From: an uncultured Bifidobacteriaceae bacterium
GTDB lineage: Bacteria > Actinomycetota > Acidimicrobiia > IMCC26256 > PALSA-555
Assembly (NCBI GenBank): GCA_964555735.1
Contig: CAZKTS010000129.1
Coordinates: 624-64,623, forward strand
Length of the DNA: 64,000 nt
Direction: 5' to 3'
The position numbers and the translations under genes were made by a program. Positions 11,950-64,000 of this stretch are shown piece after piece (position 1 is the stretch's first letter; each line of letters opens with the position of its first letter). The notes beneath the pieces are model-generated. The model searched no databases. It was given only the letters and a program-made list of their open reading frames with translations, and was not told the origin of the DNA.

Positions 11950-13382
11950 CGGACGCCGTCCAGCTCGGTGACGGCCGGGTCGGTGGCAGGCGTGATGCCG
12001 GCCTTGGCGTCGTCGCGCGCGGCCCACCACTTCAGGAGCACGTACACGGGGATGCCGCCCATCAGGAGCATGAAACCCTTGAAGACGATCTCGTAGCCCG
12101 AGCCGGCGATGGCCCAGAGCGAGTACGCGAACGCCAGCAGCGCGATGACCGCGTCCTTGGTGAGCTTGCGCATGTCGAACGCCGCACGGTCGGTCACGAA
12201 CAGCTGGAGCTCCGCGGCCGCCGAGAACGCATACGGGACGAGGGTCGTGAGCGTCGCCAGCAGGATGATGAAGGTGAACTGGTCGACGAGGCTCTTCTCG
12301 TAGTTCATGAACACCAGGACGGTGATGAACACGCTCGAGAGCACGAGGCCGAACACCGGCGAGCCGTTGCGGCTCGTGCGGGCGAACGGCTTCGGGAAGA
12401 GCCGGTCCCGGGCCGCGGCGAGCGGCACCTGGCCCTGCAGCAGGATCCAGCCGTTGAGGGCACCGAAGGTCGCGACCAGCGCGCAGATCGTGATCACGTC
12501 TGCCGGCCAGCCGCCACCGAAGATCCCCTTGGCCGCGTCGGCGAACGGTGCACCGGAGTCGGCGAGAGCTCGCGGCGCGAGCTGCCCCATCACCGCGAAC
12601 GTGCCGAGGATGTACACGACGGTCGTGGCGATCGTGCCGATGATCGTCGAGCGCGGGATCGTGCGCTTCGGGTCGCGCACCTCCTCGGCCGGCACCGTCG
12701 CCGACTCGAGGCCGATGAACGCCCACAGGGTGAGGGCTGCCGCCGCGGTGATCGCGCCGAACGTCGAGTCGCCGCTCACGTTGAAGGTCGAGAAGTTGTC
12801 CCAGTCGACGAAGAAGACGCCGACCACCGCGATCACTGCCAGCGGCACGAACTTCACGATGGCGGTGACGAGCTGGACCATGCCGCCCTGGCGCACGCCG
12901 ACCGCGTTCACCAGCGTCAGCGTCCAGACCGCGGCGATGGCCACCAGCGCGGCCACCATGCCGTCGGTACGGACGGTCGGCCAGTACTCGCCCAGGTAGC
13001 TGACGAACGCCACCGCGATGGCGGCGTTCCCGGCCCACGCGGCGATCCAGTAGCCCCAGGCCTGCTGGAACCCGATGAAGTCGCCGAACGCGCGGCGGCT
13101 GTACACGTAGGGTCCTCCGGTCTTCGGGTACGCACGCCCGAGGCGGGCGAACACGATGGCGAGCAGCACGGCGCCGATGCCGGTGAGGCCGAACGCCACC
13201 AGCGAGATCGGGCCGTACGCCGCGAGCGACGCCGGCAGGAGGAACACGCCGGAGCCGATCATGTTGCCGACGACCAGGGCCGTCGCCATCGAGAGACCGA
13301 GCGCGCGGCGGCGCCCGCCCGCCGGCGTGGTGTCGGGCGGCACGGGCGCCGCGCTGTCGGTTCGGTCGAGGACCGTTGCCAT
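11946..13382 (-). CDS. APC-family amino-acid permease (arginine/ornithine antiporter-like)
   Basis: About 478 aa from MATVLDR (ATG preceded by GGGGGAGAA SD). Multi-TM with [12 protein letters not shown] signature. First gene of the ADI operon. Confidence 0.85.
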
Positions 13383-29111: not shown

Positions 29112-29245
29112 GCCCGCTCCTGTCGTTCGACGCCTACGGTCGAGGAAGACATCGATACTGACAGAGCTGAAGGGGTCTGTGCCGAGCGACGCTTCGAGCA
29201 CCTCGGCGGACGTGCGGGGGGTAGTAGTAGGGACGCGAGTAGGGA
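29112..29245 (-). repeat. Decayed third copy of the tRNA-like repeat element (copy C)
   Basis: Retains AGTAGGGA-CGCG-AGTAGGGA (29226..29245), CCCCCGC, and GATGTCTTCCTCGACCGT (compare GAATGTCTTCCTAAACCGT in A/B). The T-arm is degenerate. The element ends at the AGGAG SD/ATG of the oxidoreductase. Confidence 0.6.
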
Positions 29246-29260: not shown

Positions 29261-29659
29261 TCAGTCGAACCGGACGCGTTCGCGGAGCCACTCCGCGAGC
29301 CACGCCTCGTCCACGTCGTGTGCTGCGACTGCGAGCATCGCTGCTTCGGCGTCGTCGACATCGGGCGGGTCCGGATCCCAGGTCCCGTCGTTGAGGTCGA
29401 CGAAGAGGGTGAGCGCTGCCCAGGCCGCGCGCTTGTTGCCGTCGGGCAGCGGATGGTTCCAGGACAGTCGGCAGGCGAGAACTGCTGCCTTGTCGAAGAG
29501 ATCCGGGTAGAAGTCCTCGTCACCGAAGCCGGCGCTGGGTGCGTGGAGCGCAGAGTCCGCGAGCTCGACGCGTGCTGCTTTCAGCAGCACCGTGGCGTTC
29601 GTGCCGGTGACCTGTTCCGCCAGCCAGAAGTACTCGGCCAGCGACAGGTATCGGGTCAC
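29261..29659 (-). CDS. doc: Doc (death-on-curing) / Fic-family toxin
   Basis: 132 aa with HPLPDGNKRAAW (Doc variant of the Fic motif). ATGA overlap with the upstream antitoxin. Confidence 0.85.
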   Translation of the reverse strand: MTRYLSLAEYFWLAEQVTGTNATVLLKAARVELADSALHAPSAGFGDEDFYPDLFDKAAVLACRLSWNHPLPDGNKRAAWAALTLFVDLNDGTWDPDPPDVDDAEAAMLAVAAHDVDEAWLAEWLRERVRFD

Positions 29660-29865
29660 TTCGCGAGTCGGTCCAAGAGCTCCTGGTCGCGCTCGATCAG
29701 CCGCCGGGCGCGCGTGGTGAAGTCCTTGTCCTCCTTGACCTTGGCGATCTCGGCCTCGAGGGACTCGACGATGAGGGCGTTGACGCTGGTGCCGCGCACT
29801 CGGGCGACGGCCTCGGCCTCGTCGGCGAGGTCGTCGGGGAGCCTGACGGTGGTCTGCTTGGCCAT
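29656..29865 (-). CDS. Ribbon-helix-helix antitoxin (Phd/CopG-like)
   Basis: 69 aa. MAKQTTVRLPDDLADEAEAVARVRGTSVNALIVESL is a typical RHH N-terminus. Confidence 0.75.
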   Translation of the reverse strand: MAKQTTVRLPDDLADEAEAVARVRGTSVNALIVESLEAEIAKVKEDKDFTTRARRLIERDQELLDRLAK

Positions 29866-30378: not shown

Positions 30379-30543
30379 GCGCCCCCGGGAGGATTCGAAC
30401 CTCCGCACACGGTTTAGGAAGACATTCCCGACCGTCCAGCCAGACTCATCGCGTCCAGCACGTGTTGTCCTGTCTCAGGGTACGTCCACCTGGCGACATC
30501 GAGTGTCGTAGCGAGCGGGGAGTAGTAGGGACGCGAGTAGGGA
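30379..30543 (-). ncRNA. tRNA-like repeat element copy A (direct repeat + acceptor-like helix + T-arm); function unknown
   Basis: Minus strand reads TCCCTACT-CGCG-TCCCTACT-ACTCCCCG...ACGGT-CGGGAATGTC-TTCCTAA-ACCGT-GTGC-GGAGG-TTCGAAT-CCTCC-CGGGGGCGC. It is homologous along its whole length to 58266..58432. Confidence 0.55.
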
Positions 30544-30572
30544 CGGTCCGTGTTCTATGGGGTTCGGACAGT

Positions 30573-31034
30573 TCACGACCGAACACTCCATGAAGATTCA
30601 TCGGTTCGCGCCGCCGTAGCGGAGGTCTTGCGACCACGACGCGTGATCACTCGTTGGCGCTTTTCGGGAGGACCTTCCGACTCCAGGCGACCGCACCACA
30701 GCGCGCGCTCACCGAGCTCGAGCACCAGGGTGAGATCGAGCCGACGGTTCGCGACCCGTCGTGAGGGCCTTCGGCGCGCTTCGGCGAGCTTTCGGCGTTG
30801 CGGACGCGTGGTCGTCGGCACACGGCCCACGTGGATGCCCGCGCAATATGGGCATTCGTACGGTTCGGCAGACGAGCCGACGATCGGTTGCACGAAGCTG
30901 TTCCACTCGATCGCCTGGTGTGCCTCTTCGAGCGAGGCGTAGGTGTGCTTGCGCCCACAGGCGGACCACTTTCTGCGTCGCTCACGCCGGCTGACCCGGC
31001 TGCTGCTCGGTGCATCCCGCGCGGAGGTGGTCAC
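30573..31034 (-). CDS. Arg-rich Cys/His (zinc-ribbon-like) protein, paralog 1
   Basis: 153 aa from a GTG. Paralog of 60212..60640, differing mainly by synonymous third-position changes. TACGTT (-10-like) lies exactly 7 nt upstream of the GTG and there is no SD, which suggests a leaderless mRNA. Confidence 0.65.
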   Translation of the reverse strand: MTTSARDAPSSSRVSRRERRRKWSACGRKHTYASLEEAHQAIEWNSFVQPIVGSSAEPYECPYCAGIHVGRVPTTTRPQRRKLAEARRRPSRRVANRRLDLTLVLELGERALWCGRLESEGPPEKRQRVITRRGRKTSATAARTDESSWSVRS

Positions 31035-58265: not shown

Positions 58266-58432
58266 TGGCGCCCCCGGCAGGATTCGAACCTGCGCACACG
58301 GTTTAGGAAGACATTCCCGACCGTCCAGCCAGACCACTCGCGTCCAGCGGGTGTTGTCCTGCTTGATGGTAGGTCCATCTGGTGACGGCGAGTGACGTGG
58401 TGTGCGGGGAGTAGTAGGGACGCGAGTAGGGA
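58266..58432 (-). ncRNA. tRNA-like repeat element copy B (direct repeat + acceptor-like helix + T-arm + encoded CCA); function unknown
   Basis: The minus strand ends ...ACGGT-CGGGAATGTC-TTCCTAA-ACCGT-GTGC-GCAGG-TTCGAAT-CCTGC-CGGGGGC-G-CCA. The 5' part is TCCCTACT-CGCG-TCCCTACT-ACTCCCCG. Its T-stem differs from copy A by a compensatory pair. Confidence 0.55.
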
Positions 58433-58455
58433 TGAAAGGCGTCGTGTTCGCGCTT

Positions 58456-59178
58456 CTACGGGTTCGACGGTCGGAGGCGCACAATGGCCTCTCGACCAGG
58501 TTGGCCTCCGAGGTCGACTGCCCAGATGTACTGAGGGTGCTGGGAAAGCGACGCGCGGGTCAGTGCGTGTCGCCATGCATCGGTACTTCCGAACACCCAG
58601 TGGATCACTGCAAGGTGGGTCTCATACCCGGCGGCGCCGGCGGCTTCGAGCTTCGGGCTGCAATCGGCAACCGCCGTCAAGAAGCGGTCGTGTGCTTCAG
58701 TGCCGAGCTCGAACTCGGCTGCGGAACGCATCGGGCTGACGATCAGCCTTGGGTTCGTTGCTATCCGAGCGACGCTCAGGTTCCGCGTGATCTTCCGGTC
58801 GCTTGACCGGGCTTGACCGATCTCGATGATCCGGTCGGCAGTCAGTCCGACCAAGCTCTTGAGCTGTTGGCGTGACCCATGATGGAGGGTGACGGCGAAG
58901 TGTCCGGTCAGGGTCGGTGCGCGCTCTTCGACTGCGAGTCGAACGCGTTCGGCAAATTGATCGAACGGTGCCTGGTCTTCGAGCCAGCCGCGATCCCACG
59001 CGCGAGTGACCTCGATGGCGAGGCGCCATCCATCCGTGCGCTCCGCTGCGAAGTCGAACGTCTGACCGGGGTGGCGTGCATTGAGGCCGTCGACGCGTTC
59101 GGGCGGACCGATGAGCTCGCCGAGGTGCGGGGCGAGAAGCGCGAGAGCGTCGTCGCCGCGGTCGTCAATTGCGTTCAT
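58456..59178 (-). CDS. Hypothetical protein (possible PD-(D/E)xK-like nuclease fold, weak)
   Basis: 240-aa ORF in lower-GC DNA. FDFAAE...RLAIEVTR resembles a D...ExK-type motif. A decayed paralog fragment lies at 61420..61575. Confidence 0.55.
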   Translation of the reverse strand: MNAIDDRGDDALALLAPHLGELIGPPERVDGLNARHPGQTFDFAAERTDGWRLAIEVTRAWDRGWLEDQAPFDQFAERVRLAVEERAPTLTGHFAVTLHHGSRQQLKSLVGLTADRIIEIGQARSSDRKITRNLSVARIATNPRLIVSPMRSAAEFELGTEAHDRFLTAVADCSPKLEAAGAAGYETHLAVIHWVFGSTDAWRHALTRASLSQHPQYIWAVDLGGQPGREAIVRLRPSNP

Positions 59179-59187
59179 CGGTGTTCA

Positions 59188-60024
59188 TCAGGAGCGTGCG
59201 TCTGTGCGCCCAGCGAAATCGCGCATCGTGAAGACCTCAAGATGGTTGAGGAACTTGTCTCGCCCGCGCACCTTTCGCAAGGCATCTGCTAGATGCCGCT
59301 CCGTCGCGACGGCCTCTACATAGGGGAGAGAGGAGGCGATCAGGACGTCGAAGGCGTCCGAGGCGCCTGGTGTGCGGTCGCGATCTGCGTAGAACTTGTA
59401 GAACACGGTGTACGCCATCGCCTTGAGCGATGGAAAGGCGTCGACATCGACTACTTGTTCCGTGGCCGCTTCGCGTTGCGCGAAGGCCATCTGGTGTTCG
59501 CATAGCTGTGAGTAGGCGGTCATCCAGGCGAAGAGACGAACCTCTTCTCGGGTGTAGTTCTCGCGTGCAGGTTGGTAGTTCTGCACGAGTGAAACCATGC
59601 CATCGACGATGGACGCTCCGGCGTTCCGCCAGATCGACGCCTGGTGCTCAAGCTGCCCGAGGAGACTCGGGAGAACGGTGAGCTGGTGGCCAGCGCCTCC
59701 GAGCGGCGTGAAGGCGATCGACCCAGGCTCGACAACGGTCGGATCGGGGTAGCAGCGGACTTCTTCTTCGATCAGTTCCCGGTAGCTCTTGATGAGCAGG
59801 CATGGCTCGCATTGAAACGCGGTAATGAACTGGTCGAAGACGTCGACCCGCCTCTGCAGCTCCAGCAGCGTGAACACGCTGAAGCACGGAATGAACGGCG
59901 GATCGGTCGCACTCCAGGTGTCGCGGAACTGTTGGCCAACACCAGTGGGGTCCTTGGCGATCTCGCTCGCCGCCATCGTGTCGAGCAAGAACAATGGATA
60001 GCGCGTGCCGTTGAGGCTGAGCAT
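59188..60024 (-). CDS. Hypothetical protein with PIN-like signature (weak)
   Basis: 278 aa from an ATG with a perfect AAGGAGA SD. LFLLDTMAAS (Asp), FTLLELQ (Glu) and C-terminal DAFDVLIASSLPYVEAVATERH resemble PIN acidic residues. Confidence 0.55.
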   Translation of the reverse strand: MLSLNGTRYPLFLLDTMAASEIAKDPTGVGQQFRDTWSATDPPFIPCFSVFTLLELQRRVDVFDQFITAFQCEPCLLIKSYRELIEEEVRCYPDPTVVEPGSIAFTPLGGAGHQLTVLPSLLGQLEHQASIWRNAGASIVDGMVSLVQNYQPARENYTREEVRLFAWMTAYSQLCEHQMAFAQREAATEQVVDVDAFPSLKAMAYTVFYKFYADRDRTPGASDAFDVLIASSLPYVEAVATERHLADALRKVRGRDKFLNHLEVFTMRDFAGRTDARS

Positions 60025-60035
60025 TGTTCGTCTCC

Positions 60036-60215
60036 TTAGGGCCTGCGCTCGCGGCCGTCGAGATGCAACGTGTCGCCGTCGAGGTGCAGGCGCTTGATCA
60101 CGTGTGGTGCGGCGTGCTCGGCGCAGATCCGAAGGTTCGTATCGGGGTAGAGCGCCGACGAGTAGTTGTTGACCACGTTTGGACAGGCTTCGACCGAGCA
60201 GTCCATGACGATCAT
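60036..60215 (-). CDS. 59-aa Cys/His micro-protein (hypothetical)
   Basis: ATGA overlap with the stop of paralog 2. Has C6-x4-C11...C31-x2-H34. Too short for the ORF track's real-gene cues. Confidence 0.4.
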   Translation of the reverse strand: MIVMDCSVEACPNVVNNYSSALYPDTNLRICAEHAAPHVIKRLHLDGDTLHLDGRERRP

Positions 60216-60640
60216 CGGTTCGCGGCGGAGGCCTTGCGGCCGCGACGTGCAATCACTCGTTGGCGCTTTTCGGGAGCACCTTCGGACTCGAGGCGACCGC
60301 ACCACACGACTCGCTCGCCGAGCTCGATGACCAGGGCGAGATCGAGCCGACGGTCGGCGACGCGTCGCGAGGGCCGTCGGCGTGCTTCGGAGATCTTCCG
60401 GCGTTGCTGACGTGTTGCCGCCGGCGCACGGCCGACGTGGATGCCGGCGCAGTACGTGCATTCATACGGCTCGGCGGAGGAACCGGCGATCGGCTGCACG
60501 AAGCTGTTCCACTCGATCGCCTCGCGTGCCTCCTCGATCGACGCGTAGGAGTGCTTACGCCCGCAGGCAGACCACCGTCGCCGCAGCTCGCGGCGGCTGA
60601 CCTGACGGCCGCTCGACGCAGTTCGAGTGGAGGTGCTCAC
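60212..60640 (-). CDS. Arg-rich Cys/His (zinc-ribbon-like) protein, paralog 2
   Basis: 142 aa from a GTG. WSACGRKHSYAS...EPYECTYCAGIHVG...RRLDLALVIELGERVVWCGRLE. TACCGT lies exactly 7 nt upstream of the GTG, which suggests a leaderless mRNA. Confidence 0.65.
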   Translation of the reverse strand: MSTSTRTASSGRQVSRRELRRRWSACGRKHSYASIEEAREAIEWNSFVQPIAGSSAEPYECTYCAGIHVGRAPAATRQQRRKISEARRRPSRRVADRRLDLALVIELGERVVWCGRLESEGAPEKRQRVIARRGRKASAANR

Positions 60641-60777
60641 GATGACGACGGTAGAAGCGGGGTGAGACAGTCGAACGACTCTCGCTGCCGGCCCGCCGGT
60701 CCTGGCGTTCGCGAGCCACGCGCGGAAGAGTCTCCCCGGGCCTGCACGGCAACGCCAAAGCCGTCGGCTAGGCAGTT

Positions 60778-61014
60778 TCAGGTCGTGGCCGAATCGCTCC
60801 GCGTGATGGACCAGTCCGGGAACTCGGCCTTGAGCTCGGCGAGCGAGCGAAGGACCTCGGCCTCGTCGTCGGTCCGGGGCCGGGTGATCTGGATCTCGAC
60901 GAAGCGGGTGACGAGACCGAGGCCCCACCACGGACGCCACTGACGTCGGAGGGTGTAGCGGTACTGGTCGTCGCGCGCGTGCGCGATATCGCGCCACTTG
61001 GAGTAGCCGGGCAT
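60778..61014 (-). CDS. Small hypothetical protein (78 aa)
   Basis: ATG preceded by a GGGAGG SD at good spacing. No family recognised. Confidence 0.5.
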   Translation of the reverse strand: MPGYSKWRDIAHARDDQYRYTLRRQWRPWWGLGLVTRFVEIQITRPRTDDEAEVLRSLAELKAEFPDWSITRSDSATT

Positions 61015-61046
61015 CGTGAACCTCCCTAGGTTTCAGGGTTCTAGGT

Positions 61047-61256
61047 TCACGACCGCTCCCGCTTGCTTCTCTGTGGACGACGATGGCGCGCCTTGCGCGA
61101 CCTGCCCAGGGGCCGCTGTCGGACGCCGCACTCCTGCAGGTAGTACTCCCAGAAGTGGTGCTCGCACCAGTCTGCAAGTTCGTGTGAGCGCTCGAGGATC
61201 TCTTCGCGCGTCCAGTGGTCGCCTTCGGGCTCAGGTGGCTCCGGCACACTTGGCAC
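61047..61256 (-). CDS. Small hypothetical protein with Arg-rich tail (69 aa)
   Basis: ORF immediately upstream of 60778..61014 on the same strand. Composition is plausible, but there is no SD or homology support. Confidence 0.3.
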   Translation of the reverse strand: MPSVPEPPEPEGDHWTREEILERSHELADWCEHHFWEYYLQECGVRQRPLGRSRKARHRRPQRSKRERS

Positions 61257-61419
61257 TCTGTTCGTCGGGATTTCTGGCTTTGGCGGCCCCGACGCGCGCC
61301 GCCTCGACGAACGTACCTCACTGGTCCATTCGCGCGCCGCTCATCAGTGAACGCGACATCCAGGAGGTGCGACTTCCTTTCGCACTCCATCGAACTCTCG
61401 GTGTCTAAGACGACGGAGA

Positions 61420-61575
61420 GTCTTGCTGCCGCTATGAGCTCGAACTCGGCCGTGGAACGCATCGCGCTGCCGACCAGGCTTGGGGGTCGTTGCGATCCGA
61501 GCGACACTTAGGTTCGCGTGATCCTCCAGCCCTTGACAGGCGTTGACCGATCTCGATGATCCGGTCGTCATCGTT
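61420..61575 (-). pseudogene. Frameshifted fragment paralogous to the 3' half of 58456..59178
   Basis: The DNA aligns by eye with 58690..58850 (e.g. gaccgatctcgatgatccggtcg is shared). The homologous peptide (RIIEIGQ / NLSVARIAT) is split over two frames. Confidence 0.5.
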
Positions 61576-61577
61576 CG

Positions 61578-61706
61578 CTAGAGGTGGACTCCGGCGAGGT
61601 CGTGAGGAGCGTCGAACGCGACGGCGATGCCTACGAGCATTCCGAACGCCGCGAGCAGAGCAAGGGTGAACATTGTGACGACGAGCGTGCTGGTTCCCAT
61701 ATGCAT
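61578..61706 (-). CDS. Candidate 42-aa hydrophobic peptide
   Basis: Hand-translated as MHMGTSTLVVTMFTLALLAAFGMLVGIAVAFDAPHDLAGVHL. AGGA lies 5 nt upstream. Below the ORF-track size cutoff. Confidence 0.25.
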   Translation of the reverse strand: MHMGTSTLVVTMFTLALLAAFGMLVGIAVAFDAPHDLAGVHL

Positions 61707-61912
61707 GCAGTCCTGAGTTTTGTCGGGAGCATTGCCGTCGCCTCTCCCGCATCTCACCTCCGGTCAAGGCGAGGCGGGCTTCCGGAGAGGCGGCGAACGC
61801 GAGCCCGACTGGGTGTACAGGCTCTCGATGAGTTCTCCAGTCGCTGGGCGTGCCGTGCCCACCCGCGACCTCCGCCCGGGGGATGGGAGGCGCGGGTGGG
61901 CAAGCACGTGAG

Positions 61913-62353
61913 CTACTGGACGACGATCGTGCCCTTCATGCCAGCAGCGCGGTGTCCTTCGACGGTGCACCAGAACTTGTAGGTGCCGGGCTCCTCGATC
62001 ATGAGACCGCCCTTCTTGGTCTTCTTCGCCTTCGCGCCGACGACATGGCCGGTGCCCTTTACGAAGAAGTCATGGAACAAGTCCTTCGACGACAGGACGA
62101 TGGTCACATCTTCGCCCGCGCCGACCGTGATCTCGTTCGGCTTGAAGCGAAAGCGTCCTGCTGTTACGTCGATCTCTCGCGCGCCGGTGGCCGTCGGAGT
62201 GTTCGTGTGGCTGCTTCCGCCGCCGCCGTGTTCGTCCATGCCGCCGTGGTCATCCATGCTCCCACCATGTCCGCCGTCTTCTCCTGCGAAGGCTGCGACA
62301 GGTGCGAACGTCGCGGTTGTCGCGATCGCGATCGCGATGAGAATCCTCTTCAT
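61913..62353 (-). CDS. Secreted cupredoxin (plastocyanin/azurin-like) copper protein with His/Met-rich N-terminal region
   Basis: Signal peptide MKRILIAIAIATTATFAPVAAFA. GHGGSMDDHGGMDEHGGGG. Type-1 Cu ligands H...C-x4-H-x4-M (FWCTVEGHRAAGM). AAGGAG SD. Confidence 0.8.
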   Translation of the reverse strand: MKRILIAIAIATTATFAPVAAFAGEDGGHGGSMDDHGGMDEHGGGGSSHTNTPTATGAREIDVTAGRFRFKPNEITVGAGEDVTIVLSSKDLFHDFFVKGTGHVVGAKAKKTKKGGLMIEEPGTYKFWCTVEGHRAAGMKGTIVVQ

Positions 62354-62401
62354 GTCGATCTCCTTTGAGATGAGGCCGAGTGTCAAGTCATCTCGAAGAG
62401 A

Positions 62402-62773
62402 TCAACAGCGCATCGCGACTCCGAGAAGGGTTGCGTCTGGGGATCGACCTACGGGCGTTGGGCGGGTGGCTCTCGGCCCGATCGAACCGCGCCATACCGC
62501 TCGCGGTTGGCGCAGTCGCAGGAAGAGTCGCTTGCACGCCGCGACGACGATCCCGGCGGCGATGATCCAGAGGCAGAGCTCGCCGACCGTGTGCATTGCA
62601 TTGGGCTCGTGGCCGCCGCTGTCATGGGAGTCTGCGCCGAGAGCGTCGACTGTTGTTGCCACGGAATCGTGCATTCCGCTGGCGGTCGCCGTAGAGAGAC
62701 CGTGCATGCTGAGCACGCCGGCAGCGAGCACGACGATGAGGAAAGCGCGTCGGAGCCGGATCGACGACAACAT
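62402..62773 (-). CDS. Small membrane protein (DUF6153-like, frequently copper-locus associated)
   Basis: 123 aa. N-terminal TM with LSMHGL, a His-rich middle and a second TM. Confidence 0.5.
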   Translation of the reverse strand: MLSSIRLRRAFLIVVLAAGVLSMHGLSTATASGMHDSVATTVDALGADSHDSGGHEPNAMHTVGELCLWIIAAGIVVAACKRLFLRLRQPRAVWRGSIGPRATRPTPVGRSPDATLLGVAMRC

Positions 62774-62831
62774 GTAGGAGAGCCTATCGCCCTACAAGCC
62801 TCCGGTTCGACGCGGATGCGAGACTCGAGGC

Positions 62832-63497
62832 ATGGCAGATGATGCAAGCGAGGGCGCGGTGCTCTTCGCCGACCTGTCAGGGTTCACGGCGCTCACCGAG
62901 GCGCACGGTGATGGCGCCGCGGCAGACATCGCGGATCGTTTCTCCCGCCTCGCCTCCTCCGTGATCGGAGGCGATGGCCGGGTGGTGAAGACGATCGGCG
63001 ACGCTGTCATGGTCGCGACGGCTGACAGCCGGAGCGGCCTGAAAGTCGCGGTTGCGCTCCTGCACGCGGTCGATGCGGAGCCGGCCTTCCCGGGCGTGCG
63101 AATCGGGGCGCACGCCGGTCCTGTGGTCGAGCGTGCGGGCGATCTCTTCGGTGCCACCGTGAACCTTGCTGCTCGGGTCGCAGGGCATGCGCACGTGGGC
63201 CAGGCGCTCGTGACGATGCCGATCGCGAGCTGTGTGAGTCCGCACGATGGCGTTCGAGTCCGTCGCTTGGGTTCCACGTATCTCAGGAACGTCTCGCAGC
63301 CGGTGGAGCTGTTCTCCGTTGAGGATCTCTTCTACGAGCCGCGAGCTCAGGTGTTGGATCCGGTGTGTCGGATGTTCGTCGATGCGGACGAGGCGCCAGC
63401 GCAGTTGCCATGGGCAGATCGTGTGTGGCGCTTCTGCTCGTTCGAATGCGCGCGCGCCTTCAGCGAGGAGCCGGACCGGTACTCCTCACCAGCGTGA
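62832..63497 (+). CDS. Class III adenylate/guanylate cyclase domain fused to a C-terminal YHS (metal-binding) domain
   Basis: VLFADLSGFT and KTIGDAVM metal-binding Asp motifs plus GATVNLAAR. C-terminal DPVCRMFVD...FCSFECARAF is the YHS/TRASH-like signature. Confidence 0.8.
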   Translation: MADDASEGAVLFADLSGFTALTEAHGDGAAADIADRFSRLASSVIGGDGRVVKTIGDAVMVATADSRSGLKVAVALLHAVDAEPAFPGVRIGAHAGPVVERAGDLFGATVNLAARVAGHAHVGQALVTMPIASCVSPHDGVRVRRLGSTYLRNVSQPVELFSVEDLFYEPRAQVLDPVCRMFVDADEAPAQLPWADRVWRFCSFECARAFSEEPDRYSSPA

Positions 63498-63504
63498 AAA
63501 CGAC

Positions 63505-64000
63505 TTAGGCCACCTCGCGCTGAGACGCGAACGCCTCGGCTGGCGGCGGCGCGATCTTGGTGACCTCCGTGCCGGGATCCGGAAGATGGAGTCGCTTCAA
63601 CATCAGCGCGTTGACGGCGACGATGAAGCTCGAACCCGACATGCTGAGTGCGGCAATTTCGGGACGGAGAACGAGCCCGAACATCGGGTCGAACACGCCA
63701 GCCGCGATTGGAAGCGCGATCGCGTTGTAACCGATTGCCCAGCCGAGGTTCTGGCGCATCTTCCGCAGAGTGCCTCGACCAATGCTGAGCGCTGTTGGGA
63801 TGTCGAGGGGGTCGGAGCGCATGAGTACGACGTCGGCAGTCTCGATCGCGACATCAGTACCCGCGCCGATGGCGATGCCGAGGTCGGCCTGCGCGAGGGC
63901 TGGTGCGTCGTTGACGCCGTCGCCGACCATCGCAACCTTTGAGCCGTCGCGTTGGAGCTCTGCGATCTTGGCGGCCTTGTCGCCCGGCAGAACCTCCGCA
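63505..64000 (-). CDS. Heavy-metal (copper) P1B-type ATPase, C-terminal part (gene continues beyond the window)
   Basis: [37 protein letters not shown]. The reading frame stays open to position 64000 (…[27 protein letters not shown]). Confidence 0.9.

What the first reader, a model, noticed from the sequence alone, without database searches (positions are those of the whole stretch)
58456..60640. Lower-GC four-gene cassette of unknown function: candidate toxin/defence-like module
The four minus-strand genes are tightly coupled:
- Arg-rich zinc-ribbon-like protein (60640-60212);
- 59-aa Cys/His micro-protein (ATGA overlap);
- 278-aa protein with PIN-like acidic motifs (strong SD);
- 240-aa protein with a possible D...ExK nuclease-like motif (9-nt gap).

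The tRNA-like element follows immediately.

Hand counts of 60-nt blocks give about 38/60 G+C (59581-59640) and about 31/60 (59761-59820), versus about 44/60 in a housekeeping block (12001-12060). That is consistent with horizontal acquisition. I do not recognise two predicted nuclease-like proteins plus two small Zn-binding proteins next to a structured RNA as a described system.
Basis: partly seen in the sequence, partly recalled or inferred. Interest (0 to 1): 0.65.

Follow-up and report, generated by a model that had tools for sequence, protein, structure and literature searches.

The report
Nuclease-like cargo at a genomic-island end
The four genes are real and foreign-looking, but they are not one system with an RNA partner: they sit at the end of a horizontally acquired island whose border is a leftover half of a tRNA-Arg gene, and two of them are stand-alone, nuclease-like cargo genes of unknown function.

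Summary

- **The "tRNA-like element".** It is the 3' half of a tRNA-Arg(CCU) gene (58309-58266). Such a fragment is the classic mark of one end of an island integrated into a tRNA gene. Two more copies lie at 30.4 kb and 29.1 kb.
- **Gene C (278 aa).** It belongs to a large uncharacterised family (571 clusters at 50% identity, many phyla). The family has the four acidic residues of a VapC-like PIN nuclease and a roughly 120-aa helical insert. No sequence or fold search reaches significance. C has no conserved neighbour, and several homologues lie near integrases, transposases and defence genes.
- **Gene D (240 aa).** It is a rare family found alone in mobile elements. The nuclease idea is not supported.
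- **Genes A and B.** These small Cys/His proteins are lineage-specific and form the conserved backbone. B-C-D is kept in one related contig, deleted in the window's second copy, and replaced by a weakly HEPN-like gene in another contig.

This is swappable cargo at an island end, plausibly toxin or defence genes, and not a described or co-evolved four-gene system.

The parts
60212..60640 (-). Gene A: a 142-aa Arg-rich protein with a C...H / CxxC...H pattern. It is the conserved backbone gene next to the island border.
   Evidence: ORF. It has only 2 homologues among 5.8 billion proteins. A paralogue lies at 31034-30573, with a substitution pattern skewed to third codon positions. A third copy at 83% identity is in L091. 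No family hit except phrog_14788 at E=0.015.
60036..60215 (-). Gene B: a 59-aa Cys/His mini-protein, overlapping A by ATGA.
   Evidence: It is conserved in L091 (68%) and L092 (60%), retaining C6, C11, C31 and H34. B stays with A in L091, where C is lost. No family or PDB sequence hit.
59188..60024 (-). Gene C: a 278-aa stand-alone PIN-like protein. D15, E55, D223 and E242 form the acidic pattern, and a roughly 120-aa helical insert lies between residues ~100 and ~220.
   Evidence: Alignment A3. AlphaFold model with pLDDT 91.5. The best Foldseek PDB hits are PIN domains, but only at E 0.3-1. The family has 571 cluster representatives and 39 genome loci in many phyla. No conserved neighbour.
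58456..59178 (-). Gene D: a 240-aa alpha/beta protein of unknown fold family. It is a rare cargo gene of mobile elements.
   Evidence: 13 homologues and alignment A4. AlphaFold model with pLDDT 85.6. No significant PDB or viral fold match. Contexts elsewhere: TrwC relaxase with a coupling protein, IS110 with a serine recombinase, an integrase with Prim-Pol and ArdC, and a phage capsid gene.
58310..58431 (-). Conserved 122-nt arm between D and the tRNA fragment. It begins with the direct-repeat 22-mer CCCTACTCGCGTCCCTACTACT. I infer it is element-derived att arm sequence.
   Evidence: It is 88% identical to 30421-30542, with sharp homology boundaries. The 22-mer occurs 3 times exactly, against 0 expected by chance. 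The RAATGTC directly 5' of the tRNA part is shared with metagenome loci L098-L100.
58266..58309 (-). Displaced 3' half of a tRNA-Arg(CCU) gene. It runs from the anticodon loop through the T-arm, acceptor strand and G73 to CCA, and marks the island border.
   Evidence: A pattern taken from it finds 10 viral contigs, 9 of which carry true tRNA-Arg(cct) genes. It matches their 3' halves at 39/42 and 42/45 positions, starting exactly at TTCCTAA. No full tRNA is present.
30380..31034 (-). Second copy of the module. A' is 31034-30573. The first ~38 nt of B are 30601-30562. The arm is 30542-30421 and the half tRNA-Arg is 30420-30380. C and D are absent.
29112..29244 (-). Third, decayed copy of the arm plus tRNA fragment. 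It keeps the exact 22-mer and ATGTCTTCCT..ACCGT, and abuts the start codon (29110) of an oxidoreductase gene.
61420..61570 (-). Frameshifted fragment of a D-like gene, covering D residues ~112-160.
   Evidence: Repeat D19 at 88% identity. It also matches the D homologue of L092. The reading-frame breaks are visible.

Best explanation
The cassette is the border-proximal end of a horizontally acquired genomic island that integrated into a tRNA-Arg(CCU) gene.

**Shown**
- The 44-nt 'tRNA-like' piece is the displaced 3' half of that tRNA.
- It is preceded by a conserved 122-nt arm.
- The low-G+C DNA (the cassette, a D-gene fragment and copper-resistance genes) lies on its 5' side and runs to the window end.
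- C and D are each found alone in other genomes, and the cargo between A-B and the arm differs between copies.

**Inferred**
- The intact tRNA and the integrase lie beyond position 64000.
- The copies at 30.4 kb and 29.1 kb are borders of older islands stacked in tandem at the same tRNA.
- A and B, two small basic Cys/His proteins, are the conserved backbone of this island family. They probably bind nucleic acid, as regulators or recombination accessories.
- C and D are two unrelated single-gene cargo modules. They became neighbours only in this lineage, at a spot where cargo is gained, lost and swapped.
- C most likely works as a metal-dependent PIN-type endonuclease, probably on RNA. Its helical insert may gate or target the active site in place of a separate antitoxin.
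- D's chemistry is unknown.
- The likeliest role for both is conflict-related: abortive-infection or toxin-type defence, or island maintenance.
For: **Border**
- The half tRNA matches real tRNA-Arg(cct) genes from the anticodon loop to the 3' end. No full tRNA is present in the window.
- Homology between the window's two copies stops sharply at the acceptor end.
- The same half tRNA with the same 5' RAATGTC, and the same sharp break, occurs in L098-L100.
- Islander (PMC4383910) states that a displaced tDNA fragment marks an island end. It reports 3' fragments in 3760 of 3919 islands and anticodon-centred sites in 2083.

**Foreign DNA**
- G+C is 0.644 for 58268-64000 against 0.724 for 1-22000.
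- Cupredoxin and cyclase-YHS genes match Pfam. I read a P-type ATPase C-terminus at 63505-63930 from its translation; it was not scanned.

**Cargo swapping**
- B-C-D is kept in L092 at about 75% nucleotide identity.
- In L091, A-B is followed by a 26-aa remnant of C and then an unrelated 193-aa protein with weak HEPN hits.
- The 30-kb copy keeps A, the first ~38 nt of B and the arm.

**C and D as solo genes**
- No A, B or D homologue lies next to C in the 46 loci compared, apart from the three near-identical contigs L001-L003 and the later-found L092.
- C has no conserved neighbour.
- D appears in four different mobile-element contexts.

**C as PIN-like**
- The conserved residues are D15-T16, E55, S222-D223, T241 (all invariant) and E242 (nearly invariant). 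They sit after strand 1, in the helix after strand 2, at the start of helix 223-230, and after strand 238-240. This is the VapC-like layout described in PMC5499597.
- PIN domains head the Foldseek list.

**Conflict context of C homologues**
- TIR, an RT-cyclase fusion and type I restriction-modification genes.
- KAP NTPase, kinase and CoiA nuclease.
- Integrase and Mrr.
- Integrases, transposases, caspases and PADLOC candidate-defence models among 113 flanking proteins.
Against: - No intact tRNA-Arg and no integrase is visible in the window, so the island is bounded on one side only.
- The stretch between the 30.4-kb and 58.3-kb fragments (28 kb, G+C 0.695) carries metabolic genes and no obvious mobility gene. 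The tandem-stacking reading is therefore weak, and a segmental duplication is possible instead.
- The PIN assignment has no statistical support. Foldseek gives E >= 0.3 and TM <= 0.2 on the query. Pfam PIN is hit by 1 of 26 family members at E=0.046. A profile with the insert removed finds nothing among PDB sequences.
- Many neighbours of C are ordinary housekeeping genes, and no background rate was computed.
- No function was tested.
Confidence: 0.6

Rival explanations
1. One reading: A, B, C, D and the adjacent structured RNA form one integrated toxin or defence system of a new kind.
For: - The genes are tightly spaced, with an ATGA overlap, an 11-nt gap with a Shine-Dalgarno sequence, and a 9-nt gap.
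- B-C-D order is retained in L092.
- The arm plus tRNA fragment folds with a z-score of -2.2, and there is one compensatory change in the T-stem between the two window copies.
Against: - C is alone in more than 40 loci and D is alone in 4.
- A-B and the RNA-like piece occur without C and D at 30 kb. A-B occurs with a different cargo gene in L091.
- The RNA-like piece is a tRNA-Arg(CCU) 3' half.
- The long-range pairing predicted is not kept in L098-L100.
- There are no PADLOC hits.
Confidence: 0.06
2. B-C, or C-D, is a VapBC-like type II toxin-antitoxin pair. The PIN-like toxin C is neutralised by a small neighbouring protein, and the pair stabilises the island.
For: - C has a PIN-like acidic pattern.
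- A small gene lies directly upstream with tight coupling.
- The neighbouring small island carries a ribbon-helix-helix plus Doc toxin-antitoxin pair at the same relative position next to its tRNA fragment.
Against: - C homologues have no conserved upstream or downstream partner, and several have no same-strand ORF within 250 nt.
- B persists with A when C is lost.
- B has a Cys/His knuckle pattern and matches no ribbon-helix-helix, AbrB or HTH family typical of VapB antitoxins.
- D is found without C everywhere else.
Confidence: 0.15
3. C and D serve the mobile element's own life cycle, such as DNA or RNA processing during excision, replication or transfer, rather than conflict with phages or the host.
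For: - D sits among relaxase, coupling-protein, Prim-Pol and capsid genes.
- C often lies near integrases and transposases.
Against: - Neither gene is a constant part of any one element type.
- Both occupy variable, border-proximal positions.
- In L091 the C-D position is occupied by a protein with weak HEPN hits, and in island I the equivalent border-proximal position holds a Doc toxin-antitoxin pair. This looks like accessory cargo rather than core machinery.
Confidence: 0.15
4. The roughly 165-nt conserved element is a functional structured RNA with a tRNA-like domain, for example a Y-RNA-like or processing signal, and not a recombination scar.
For: - Two copies are 88% identical, with differences concentrated in the predicted unpaired region and one compensatory T-stem change.
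- There is a weak YrlA match of 17.8 bits at E=0.8.
Against: - The tRNA-like part equals the 3' half of real tRNA-Arg(cct) genes and starts exactly in the anticodon loop.
- The gathering score for YrlA is 69 bits.
- The predicted closing stem is not conserved in L098-L100.
- The third copy is decayed in the tRNA part but keeps the 22-mer intact. That pattern fits a protein-binding site better than an RNA fold.
Confidence: 0.05

Closest known systems
Genomic islands integrated in tRNA genes and bounded by a displaced 3' tDNA fragment (Islander-type islands; anticodon-centred att site)
   Same: - A 44-nt 3' half of tRNA-Arg(CCU), starting in the anticodon loop, marks the border.
- Low-G+C foreign DNA lies on its 5' side.
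- Further fragment copies suggest tandem stacking.
- Accessory cargo sits next to the border.
   Different: - The intact tRNA and an integrase are not visible in the window.
- The 122-nt arm with its CCCTACT direct repeats, and the A-B gene pair, are lineage-specific and undescribed.
VapC-like PIN-domain nucleases (Pfam PF01850; group 2 of the PIN-like classification, PMC5499597)
   Same: C has the N-terminal hhLDTN motif, a Glu in the helix after strand 2, an Asp at the start of the helix before strand 4, and T-E after strand 4. The predicted strand and helix order fits, and PIN domains are its best, though weak, structural matches.
   Different: - C is about twice the size, because of a ~120-aa helical insert between strand 3 and helix 4.
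- It has no partner antitoxin gene.
- It shows no significant sequence or profile similarity to any Pfam or PDB PIN.
- An extra invariant K-F-Y-x-D-x-x-R motif lies at the end of the insert.
Defence and accessory-gene hotspots of prophages, satellites and integrative elements
   Same: A fixed position between conserved backbone genes and the att site holds different nuclease-type genes in different copies: PIN-like C plus D, a weakly HEPN-like protein, or nothing. An adjacent small island carries a Doc toxin-antitoxin pair at its border.
   Different: None of the cargo genes matches a validated defence system (PADLOC 2023), and no phage-protection data exist.
PD-(D/E)xK nucleases (the proposed identity of D)
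   Same: D42 lies at the start of one strand and E56 in the next strand of a hairpin. An N-terminal helix carries conserved acidic residues. A few weak viral fold hits carry that label.
   Different: The motif reads E-V-T-R, with no lysine. No fold hit is better than E=0.04, and those hits have TM about 0.15. The C-terminal half, with its GYETHLAVIHW motif, has no counterpart.

Membership tests
PIN domain-like superfamily, VapC-like group (for C) | Invariant Asp just after strand S1 | tested here: met
   D15 (LLDT) is invariant in 26 of 26 sequences and follows predicted strand 11-14.
PIN domain-like superfamily, VapC-like group (for C) | Catalytic Glu in the helix that follows S2 | tested here: met
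   E55 is invariant, in helix 50-56 after strand 45-48.
PIN domain-like superfamily, VapC-like group (for C) | [quoted passage not shown] | tested here: met
   S222-D223 (invariant) opens helix 223-230. T241 (invariant) and E242 (at least 90% conserved) follow strand 238-240. This was judged on sequence and predicted secondary structure only. The 3D clustering of the residues was not checked.
PIN domain-like superfamily, VapC-like group (for C) | Five-stranded parallel alpha/beta/alpha fold, detectably similar to solved PIN structures | tested here: inconclusive
PIN domain-like superfamily, VapC-like group (for C) | Significant sequence or profile match to a PIN family | tested here: not met
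   The window protein has no Pfam PIN hit. 1 of 26 family members hits PF01850 at E=0.046. The full-length profile finds only non-PIN hits at E >= 0.23 among PDB sequences, and the insert-deleted profile finds none.
Type II toxin-antitoxin pair of VapBC type (B-C) | A conserved small antitoxin gene adjacent to the toxin across the family | tested here: not met
   No conserved neighbour in 46 loci, and several loci have no same-strand ORF within 250 nt. B stays without C in L091.
PD-(D/E)xK nuclease superfamily (for D) | D...(D/E)xK motif on the core beta-hairpin | tested here: not met
   D42 is invariant and E56 nearly invariant, but the motif reads E56-V-T-R. No lysine is conserved at +2.
PD-(D/E)xK nuclease superfamily (for D) | Fold similarity to known members | tested here: inconclusive
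tRNA gene | Complete cloverleaf recognised by tRNA finders | tested here: not met
   ARAGORN finds no tRNA in the window. The Rfam tRNA model scores 14.5 bits against a gathering score of 29. The 5' acceptor strand GCCCCCG is absent, and the anticodon stem is interrupted.
tDNA-fragment-bounded genomic island (Islander criteria) | A 3' fragment of a tRNA gene marking one end, with foreign DNA on its 5' side | tested here: met
   (fragment identity). (G+C 0.644 on the 5' side). (sharp boundary).
tDNA-fragment-bounded genomic island (Islander criteria) | Intact cognate tRNA gene and an integrase gene at the other end | not testable with these tools
   Neither is present in 58.3-64 kb. There is no tRNA, and none of the proteins scanned there is an integrase, though the ORFs were not all scanned. 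The island runs off the window, and the source contig could not be fetched.
Known anti-phage defence systems (PADLOC-DB v2.0.0) | Match to any model of a known or candidate defence protein | tested here: not met
   No family at E <= 1 for A, B, C or D, or for their relatives in L091 and L092.

The most novel reading that the evidence does not exclude
The C family is a new single-gene conflict system. It comprises about 275-aa stand-alone PIN-like proteins with a built-in helical insert (571 clusters at 50% identity, across many phyla), is absent from Pfam and PADLOC, and several members lie beside defence and mobility genes. In this reading, the insert replaces the antitoxin as an in-cis gate or sensor for an abortive-infection RNase. 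D would be a second, unrelated orphan defence gene with a new fold. The slot between A-B and the att site would be a defence-cargo hotspot of an undescribed family of islands that integrate into tRNA-Arg(CCU).
Probability: 0.25. Interest if true: 0.55.

Novelty: new member of a known kind. Interest (0 to 1): 0.33.

Why it matters
The locus does not reveal a new multi-gene system with an RNA component, so the most exciting reading falls away. Three things remain.

- **A cautionary example.** A "tRNA-like structured RNA" next to unknown genes turned out to be a displaced tRNA half marking an island border.
- **A testable protein family.** C belongs to a sizeable, widespread and entirely unannotated family with a PIN-like active-site pattern and no antitoxin. 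Some members sit next to TIR, restriction-modification and retroelement genes. It is a reasonable candidate for a toxicity and phage-challenge screen.
- **A small natural experiment in cargo exchange.** At one att-proximal slot the window and its relatives show PIN-like C plus D, a weakly HEPN-like gene, or a deletion.

Tried and rejected
- **Family scans.** Pfam, NCBIfam, PADLOC and PHROGs scans of A-D and two upstream small ORFs gave nothing usable.
- **Rfam.** At gathering score it found nothing. At relaxed E-value it gave only a weak YrlA match (17.8 of 69 bits) and a tRNA match (14.5 of 29 bits).
- **Structured-RNA reading.** I first treated the 165-nt element as a possible structured RNA, using RNAalifold. 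I dropped this once the tRNA-Arg half was identified and the closing stem proved not to be conserved in L098-L100.
- **The 22-mer.** An exact search of metagenomes found nothing. The relaxed version gave 41 viral hits, consistent with my rough chance estimate, and these were ignored. Two arm-specific patterns found nothing in viral contigs.
- **Sequence searches against PDB.** Profile searches for C, for C with the insert removed, and for D, and single-sequence searches for A and B, gave no meaningful hits. The TAL-effector hits for D are low-complexity noise.
- **L008.** I checked whether the 280-aa gene next to D's homologue there is a C relative. It is not.
- **Names and source.** Cluster look-up gave no source names. 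The source contig itself could not be retrieved beyond the window.
- **L091 tail.** Its alignment to the arm was ambiguous, and I make no claim from it.
Full report
**Observation**

The four minus-strand ORFs are exactly as described.
- A is 60640-60212 (GTG start, 142 aa).
- B is 60215-60036 (59 aa), and its ATG overlaps A's TGA as ATGA.
- C is 60024-59188 (278 aa), 11 nt after B's stop, with AAGGAG upstream.
- D is 59178-58456 (240 aa), 9 nt after C's stop.

At 0.638 the cassette is lower in G+C than any equal-sized window in positions 1-58000, where the minimum is 0.647 and the median 0.705. The low G+C continues to the window end: 0.644 for 58268-64000, against 0.724 for 1-22000.

**The proteins**

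No Pfam, NCBIfam, PADLOC or PHROGs model matches A-D. The only hit is a weak phrog_14788 match for A at E=0.015.

*C.* C is a real, widespread family. The word-indexed search found 71 homologues. The exhaustive profile search found 571 cluster representatives at 50% identity. Nearly all full-length members are stand-alone proteins of about 265-300 aa. Genome hits come from Gaiellaceae and other Actinomycetota, Chloroflexota, Planctomycetota, Bacteroidales, Acidobacteriota, Halanaerobium and Lachnospiraceae.

The alignment has these conserved residues:
- invariant D15-T16 (LLDTNAVSE), E55, S222-D223, D226 and T241;
- near-invariant E242;
- an invariant K-F-Y-x-D-x-x-R motif.

The AlphaFold model is confident (pLDDT 91.5, pTM 0.89). 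Its secondary structure places the acidic residues as follows:
- D15 after strand 11-14;
- E55 in the helix after strand 45-48;
- D223 at the start of helix 223-230;
- T241-E242 after strand 238-240.

This is the layout the PIN classification paper gives for VapC-like nucleases: Asp after S1, Glu in the helix after S2, an acid at the N-terminus of H4, and an acid after S4 (PMC5499597). A helical insert of about 120 residues lies between strand 3 and helix 4.

Statistical support is lacking. Foldseek against the PDB gives no hit below E=0.3, although PIN domains (Utp24, Utp23, three VapCs, SMG6) dominate the sensible hits. One of 26 family members touches Pfam PIN at E=0.046. Profiles with and without the insert find no PIN among PDB sequences. 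I therefore call C [quoted passage not shown].

*D.* D has 13 homologues. Its model has pLDDT 85.6. It has no significant fold match in the PDB or the viral library. The proposed motif is D42...E56-V-T-R, without a lysine. The nuclease idea is not supported, though a few very weak PD-(D/E)xK-labelled hits mean it is not excluded.

*A and B.* A has only two homologues among 5.8 billion proteins plus a paralogue in the window. Differences between the two window copies fall 25/13/44 on codon positions 1/2/3, with 36 synonymous and 32 non-synonymous codon changes. A is therefore probably a real gene. B is conserved at 60-68% identity in two related contigs, with C6, C11, C31 and H34 retained.

**Co-conservation**

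- Across the 49 loci compared (46 carrying a C homologue), A, B and D co-occur with C only in the three near-identical contigs L001-L003 and in the later-found L092, where B, C and D are 60, 77 and 72% identical in protein.
- C has no conserved neighbour, and several homologues have no same-strand ORF within 250 nt.
- D's homologues sit alone in four different mobile-element settings:
  - between a TrwC relaxase with a coupling protein and other genes;
  - next to IS110 and a serine recombinase;
  - after an integrase and Prim-Pol, before ArdC;
  - after a phage capsid gene.
- The 280-aa gene next to D in L008 is not a C relative.
- In L091, a third copy of A (83%) and B (68%) is followed by a 26-residue remnant of C's N-terminus. 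Next comes an unrelated 193-aa protein with an R-x4-H motif and weak HEPN hits (Swt1-like HEPN at E=0.009). Upstream lies a ComF/ShosT-like phosphoribosyltransferase.
- In the window's own second copy (31.0-30.4 kb), A' is followed by the first ~38 nt of B and then directly by the conserved arm. C and D are missing.

So A-B plus the arm is the conserved frame, and what lies between them is variable cargo.

**The "tRNA-like element"**

ARAGORN finds no tRNA in the window, and Rfam finds nothing at gathering score. The element is duplicated: 58431-58268 matches 30542-30379 at 88% identity. Homology starts sharply at the 22-mer CCCTACTCGCGTCCCTACTACT and ends at the acceptor-like GGGGGCGC. The 22-mer occurs three times in the window against none expected by chance.

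I first considered a structured RNA. RNAalifold gave a closing stem and one compensatory T-stem change. A pattern search then settled the matter. TTCCTAAACCGT-N3-6-GSAGGTTCGAATCCTSC hits ten viral contigs, nine of which carry bona fide tRNA-Arg(cct) genes at that spot.

The window sequence 58309-58266 (TTCCTAAACCGTGTGCGCAGGTTCGAATCCTGCCGGGGGCGCCA) matches their 3' halves at 39/42 and 42/45 positions. The match begins exactly in the anticodon loop and runs through the T-arm and acceptor strand to CCA. The sequence 5' of it is not tRNA.

Metagenome loci L098-L100 carry the same half tRNA, preceded by the same RAATGTC. They also have no full tRNA, and their sequence also breaks sharply right after the acceptor end. 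The viral contig L110 carries another such half.

A displaced 3' tRNA fragment that starts at the anticodon loop is the standard mark of one end of an island integrated in a tRNA gene. In Islander, 3760 of 3919 islands have a 3' fragment, 2083 have an anticodon-centred site, and 125 are tandem arrays (PMC4383910). The long-range stem predicted is not conserved in L098-L100.

**Island model (inference)**

With the fragment on the minus strand, the island lies on its 5' side, from 58.3 kb to beyond 64 kb. That stretch holds:
- A-D;
- two small ORFs;
- a frameshifted fragment of a D-like gene at 61420-61570;
- a copper-type cluster of cupredoxin, DUF6153 and cyclase-YHS genes, plus an ORF that reads as a P-type ATPase C-terminus but was not scanned.

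The intact tRNA-Arg(CCU) and the integrase should lie beyond the window. They could not be seen.

The 30.4-kb copy, and a third, decayed copy at 29244-29112 that abuts the start codon of an oxidoreductase, suggest tandem stacking at one tRNA. The third copy keeps the 22-mer exactly while its tRNA part has degenerated. The proposed stack has three islands:
- island I at 29.1-30.4 kb, carrying a ribbon-helix-helix plus Doc toxin-antitoxin pair;
- island II at 30.4-58.3 kb, with A' at its border;
- island III, the one in question.

This part is weak. Island II carries metabolic genes, has G+C 0.695 and shows no obvious mobility gene. A segmental duplication is an alternative.

**How it most likely works**

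*Shown:* the border is a tRNA-Arg half; the cargo between A-B and the arm differs between copies; C and D are individually mobile, stand-alone genes.

*Inferred:*
- A and B are nucleic-acid-binding backbone proteins of this island family. The CCCTACT direct repeats in the arm are a candidate binding site.
- C is a metal-dependent PIN-type endonuclease whose insert takes the place of a separate antitoxin or sensor.
- C and D are conflict-type cargo (abortive infection, toxin or island maintenance).

The context of C homologues supports this only by association:
- TIR_2, an RT-guanylate-cyclase fusion and a type I restriction-modification system;
- KAP NTPase, kinase, trypsin-like protease and CoiA nuclease;
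- integrase and Mrr;
- an RHS toxin;
- among 113 flanking proteins from 30 genome loci, integrases (3), IS110/DDE/IS66 transposases (5), HTH_17 (2), caspases (2), and PADLOC models PDC-S05 (3), PDC-S65, PDC-S01, a type I specificity subunit, mad5 and PD-Lambda-2_B.

These are mixed with ordinary metabolic genes, and no background rate was computed.

**Comparison and novelty**

As a locus this is a known kind of thing: accessory genes at the att-proximal end of a tRNA-integrated island. It is not a member of any described defence or toxin-antitoxin system. Three things are new in a modest sense: the unannotated PIN-like family with an insert, the orphan D family, and the lineage-specific A-B plus arm frame.

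**Limits**
- There are no coordinates beyond 64 kb.
- The 3D clustering of C's acidic residues was not inspected.
- One comparison used a VapC sequence recalled from memory.
- There is no experimental evidence of any kind.

Noticed in passing
window 30380-31034 (minus strand): A second, 85-88% identical copy of gene A plus the arm and half tRNA-Arg. C and D are missing, and only the first ~38 nt of B are retained. An 8-nt insertion lengthens A' to 153 aa.
   Followed up: yes
window 29261-29865 (minus strand): A ribbon-helix-helix antitoxin (69 aa) and a Fic/Doc toxin (132 aa, HPLPDGNKR motif) lie between the second and third tRNA-fragment copies. This is a small toxin-antitoxin 'islet' with G+C about 0.65.
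   Followed up: partly
window 29112-29244 (minus strand): A third, decayed copy of the arm plus tRNA half. The 22-mer is exact, but the tRNA part has degenerated. It ends directly at the AGGAG/ATG of the FAD-type oxidoreductase gene (29110-27552). This may be the original chromosomal position of the tRNA-Arg gene.
   Followed up: partly
window 61420-61570 (minus strand): A frameshifted fragment of about 150 nt from a D-like gene (88% identical to 58705-58753), upstream of the cassette. The + strand of both copies carries a sigma-70-like match (TTGACA/TTGACC, 16 nt, GATGAT).
   Followed up: partly
window 61913-64000: A metal-handling cluster in the same low-G+C stretch: a secreted His/Gly-rich cupredoxin, a DUF6153 membrane protein (weak match), an adenylate-cyclase plus YHS-domain fusion, and an ORF that reads as the C-terminus of a P-type ATPase (by eye from its translation; not scanned).
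   Followed up: partly
window 60778-61014 and 61047-61256 (minus strand): Two small ORFs upstream of A. The 78-aa ORF has a strong Shine-Dalgarno sequence and GC3 of 0.90. The 69-aa ORF has a basic tail. Neither has a family hit. The 78-aa ORF is present in the near-identical contig L002.
   Followed up: no
L091 1-2174: A variant of the module in another metagenome: a ComF/ShosT-like phosphoribosyltransferase, then A and B, then a remnant of C, then a 193-aa protein with an R-x4-H motif and weak HEPN hits.
   Followed up: partly
L098 2420-2615; L100 7310-7505: Other actinobacterial-type contigs (G+C 0.67-0.69) carry a half tRNA-Arg(CCU) preceded by the same RAATGTC, but with a different arm. 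In L100 the far side holds an excisionase-like HTH protein, and SbcC/SbcD-like and NurA-like genes as judged by eye from the translations (not scanned).
   Followed up: partly
L095 5029-6735: Next to a C homologue lies a 568-aa fusion of a reverse transcriptase (RVT_1) with a guanylate/adenylate cyclase domain, beside a TIR_2 protein and a type I restriction-modification system. The architecture is unusual.
   Followed up: no
window 58310-58354 (minus strand): Ten nucleotides upstream of the anticodon-loop start there is an ACGGT that would pair with the tRNA's ACCGT. The fragment therefore looks like a tRNA anticodon arm with a 10-nt insert (CGGGAATGTC). Whether this is chance or a trace of the recombination event is unexplained.
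   Followed up: no
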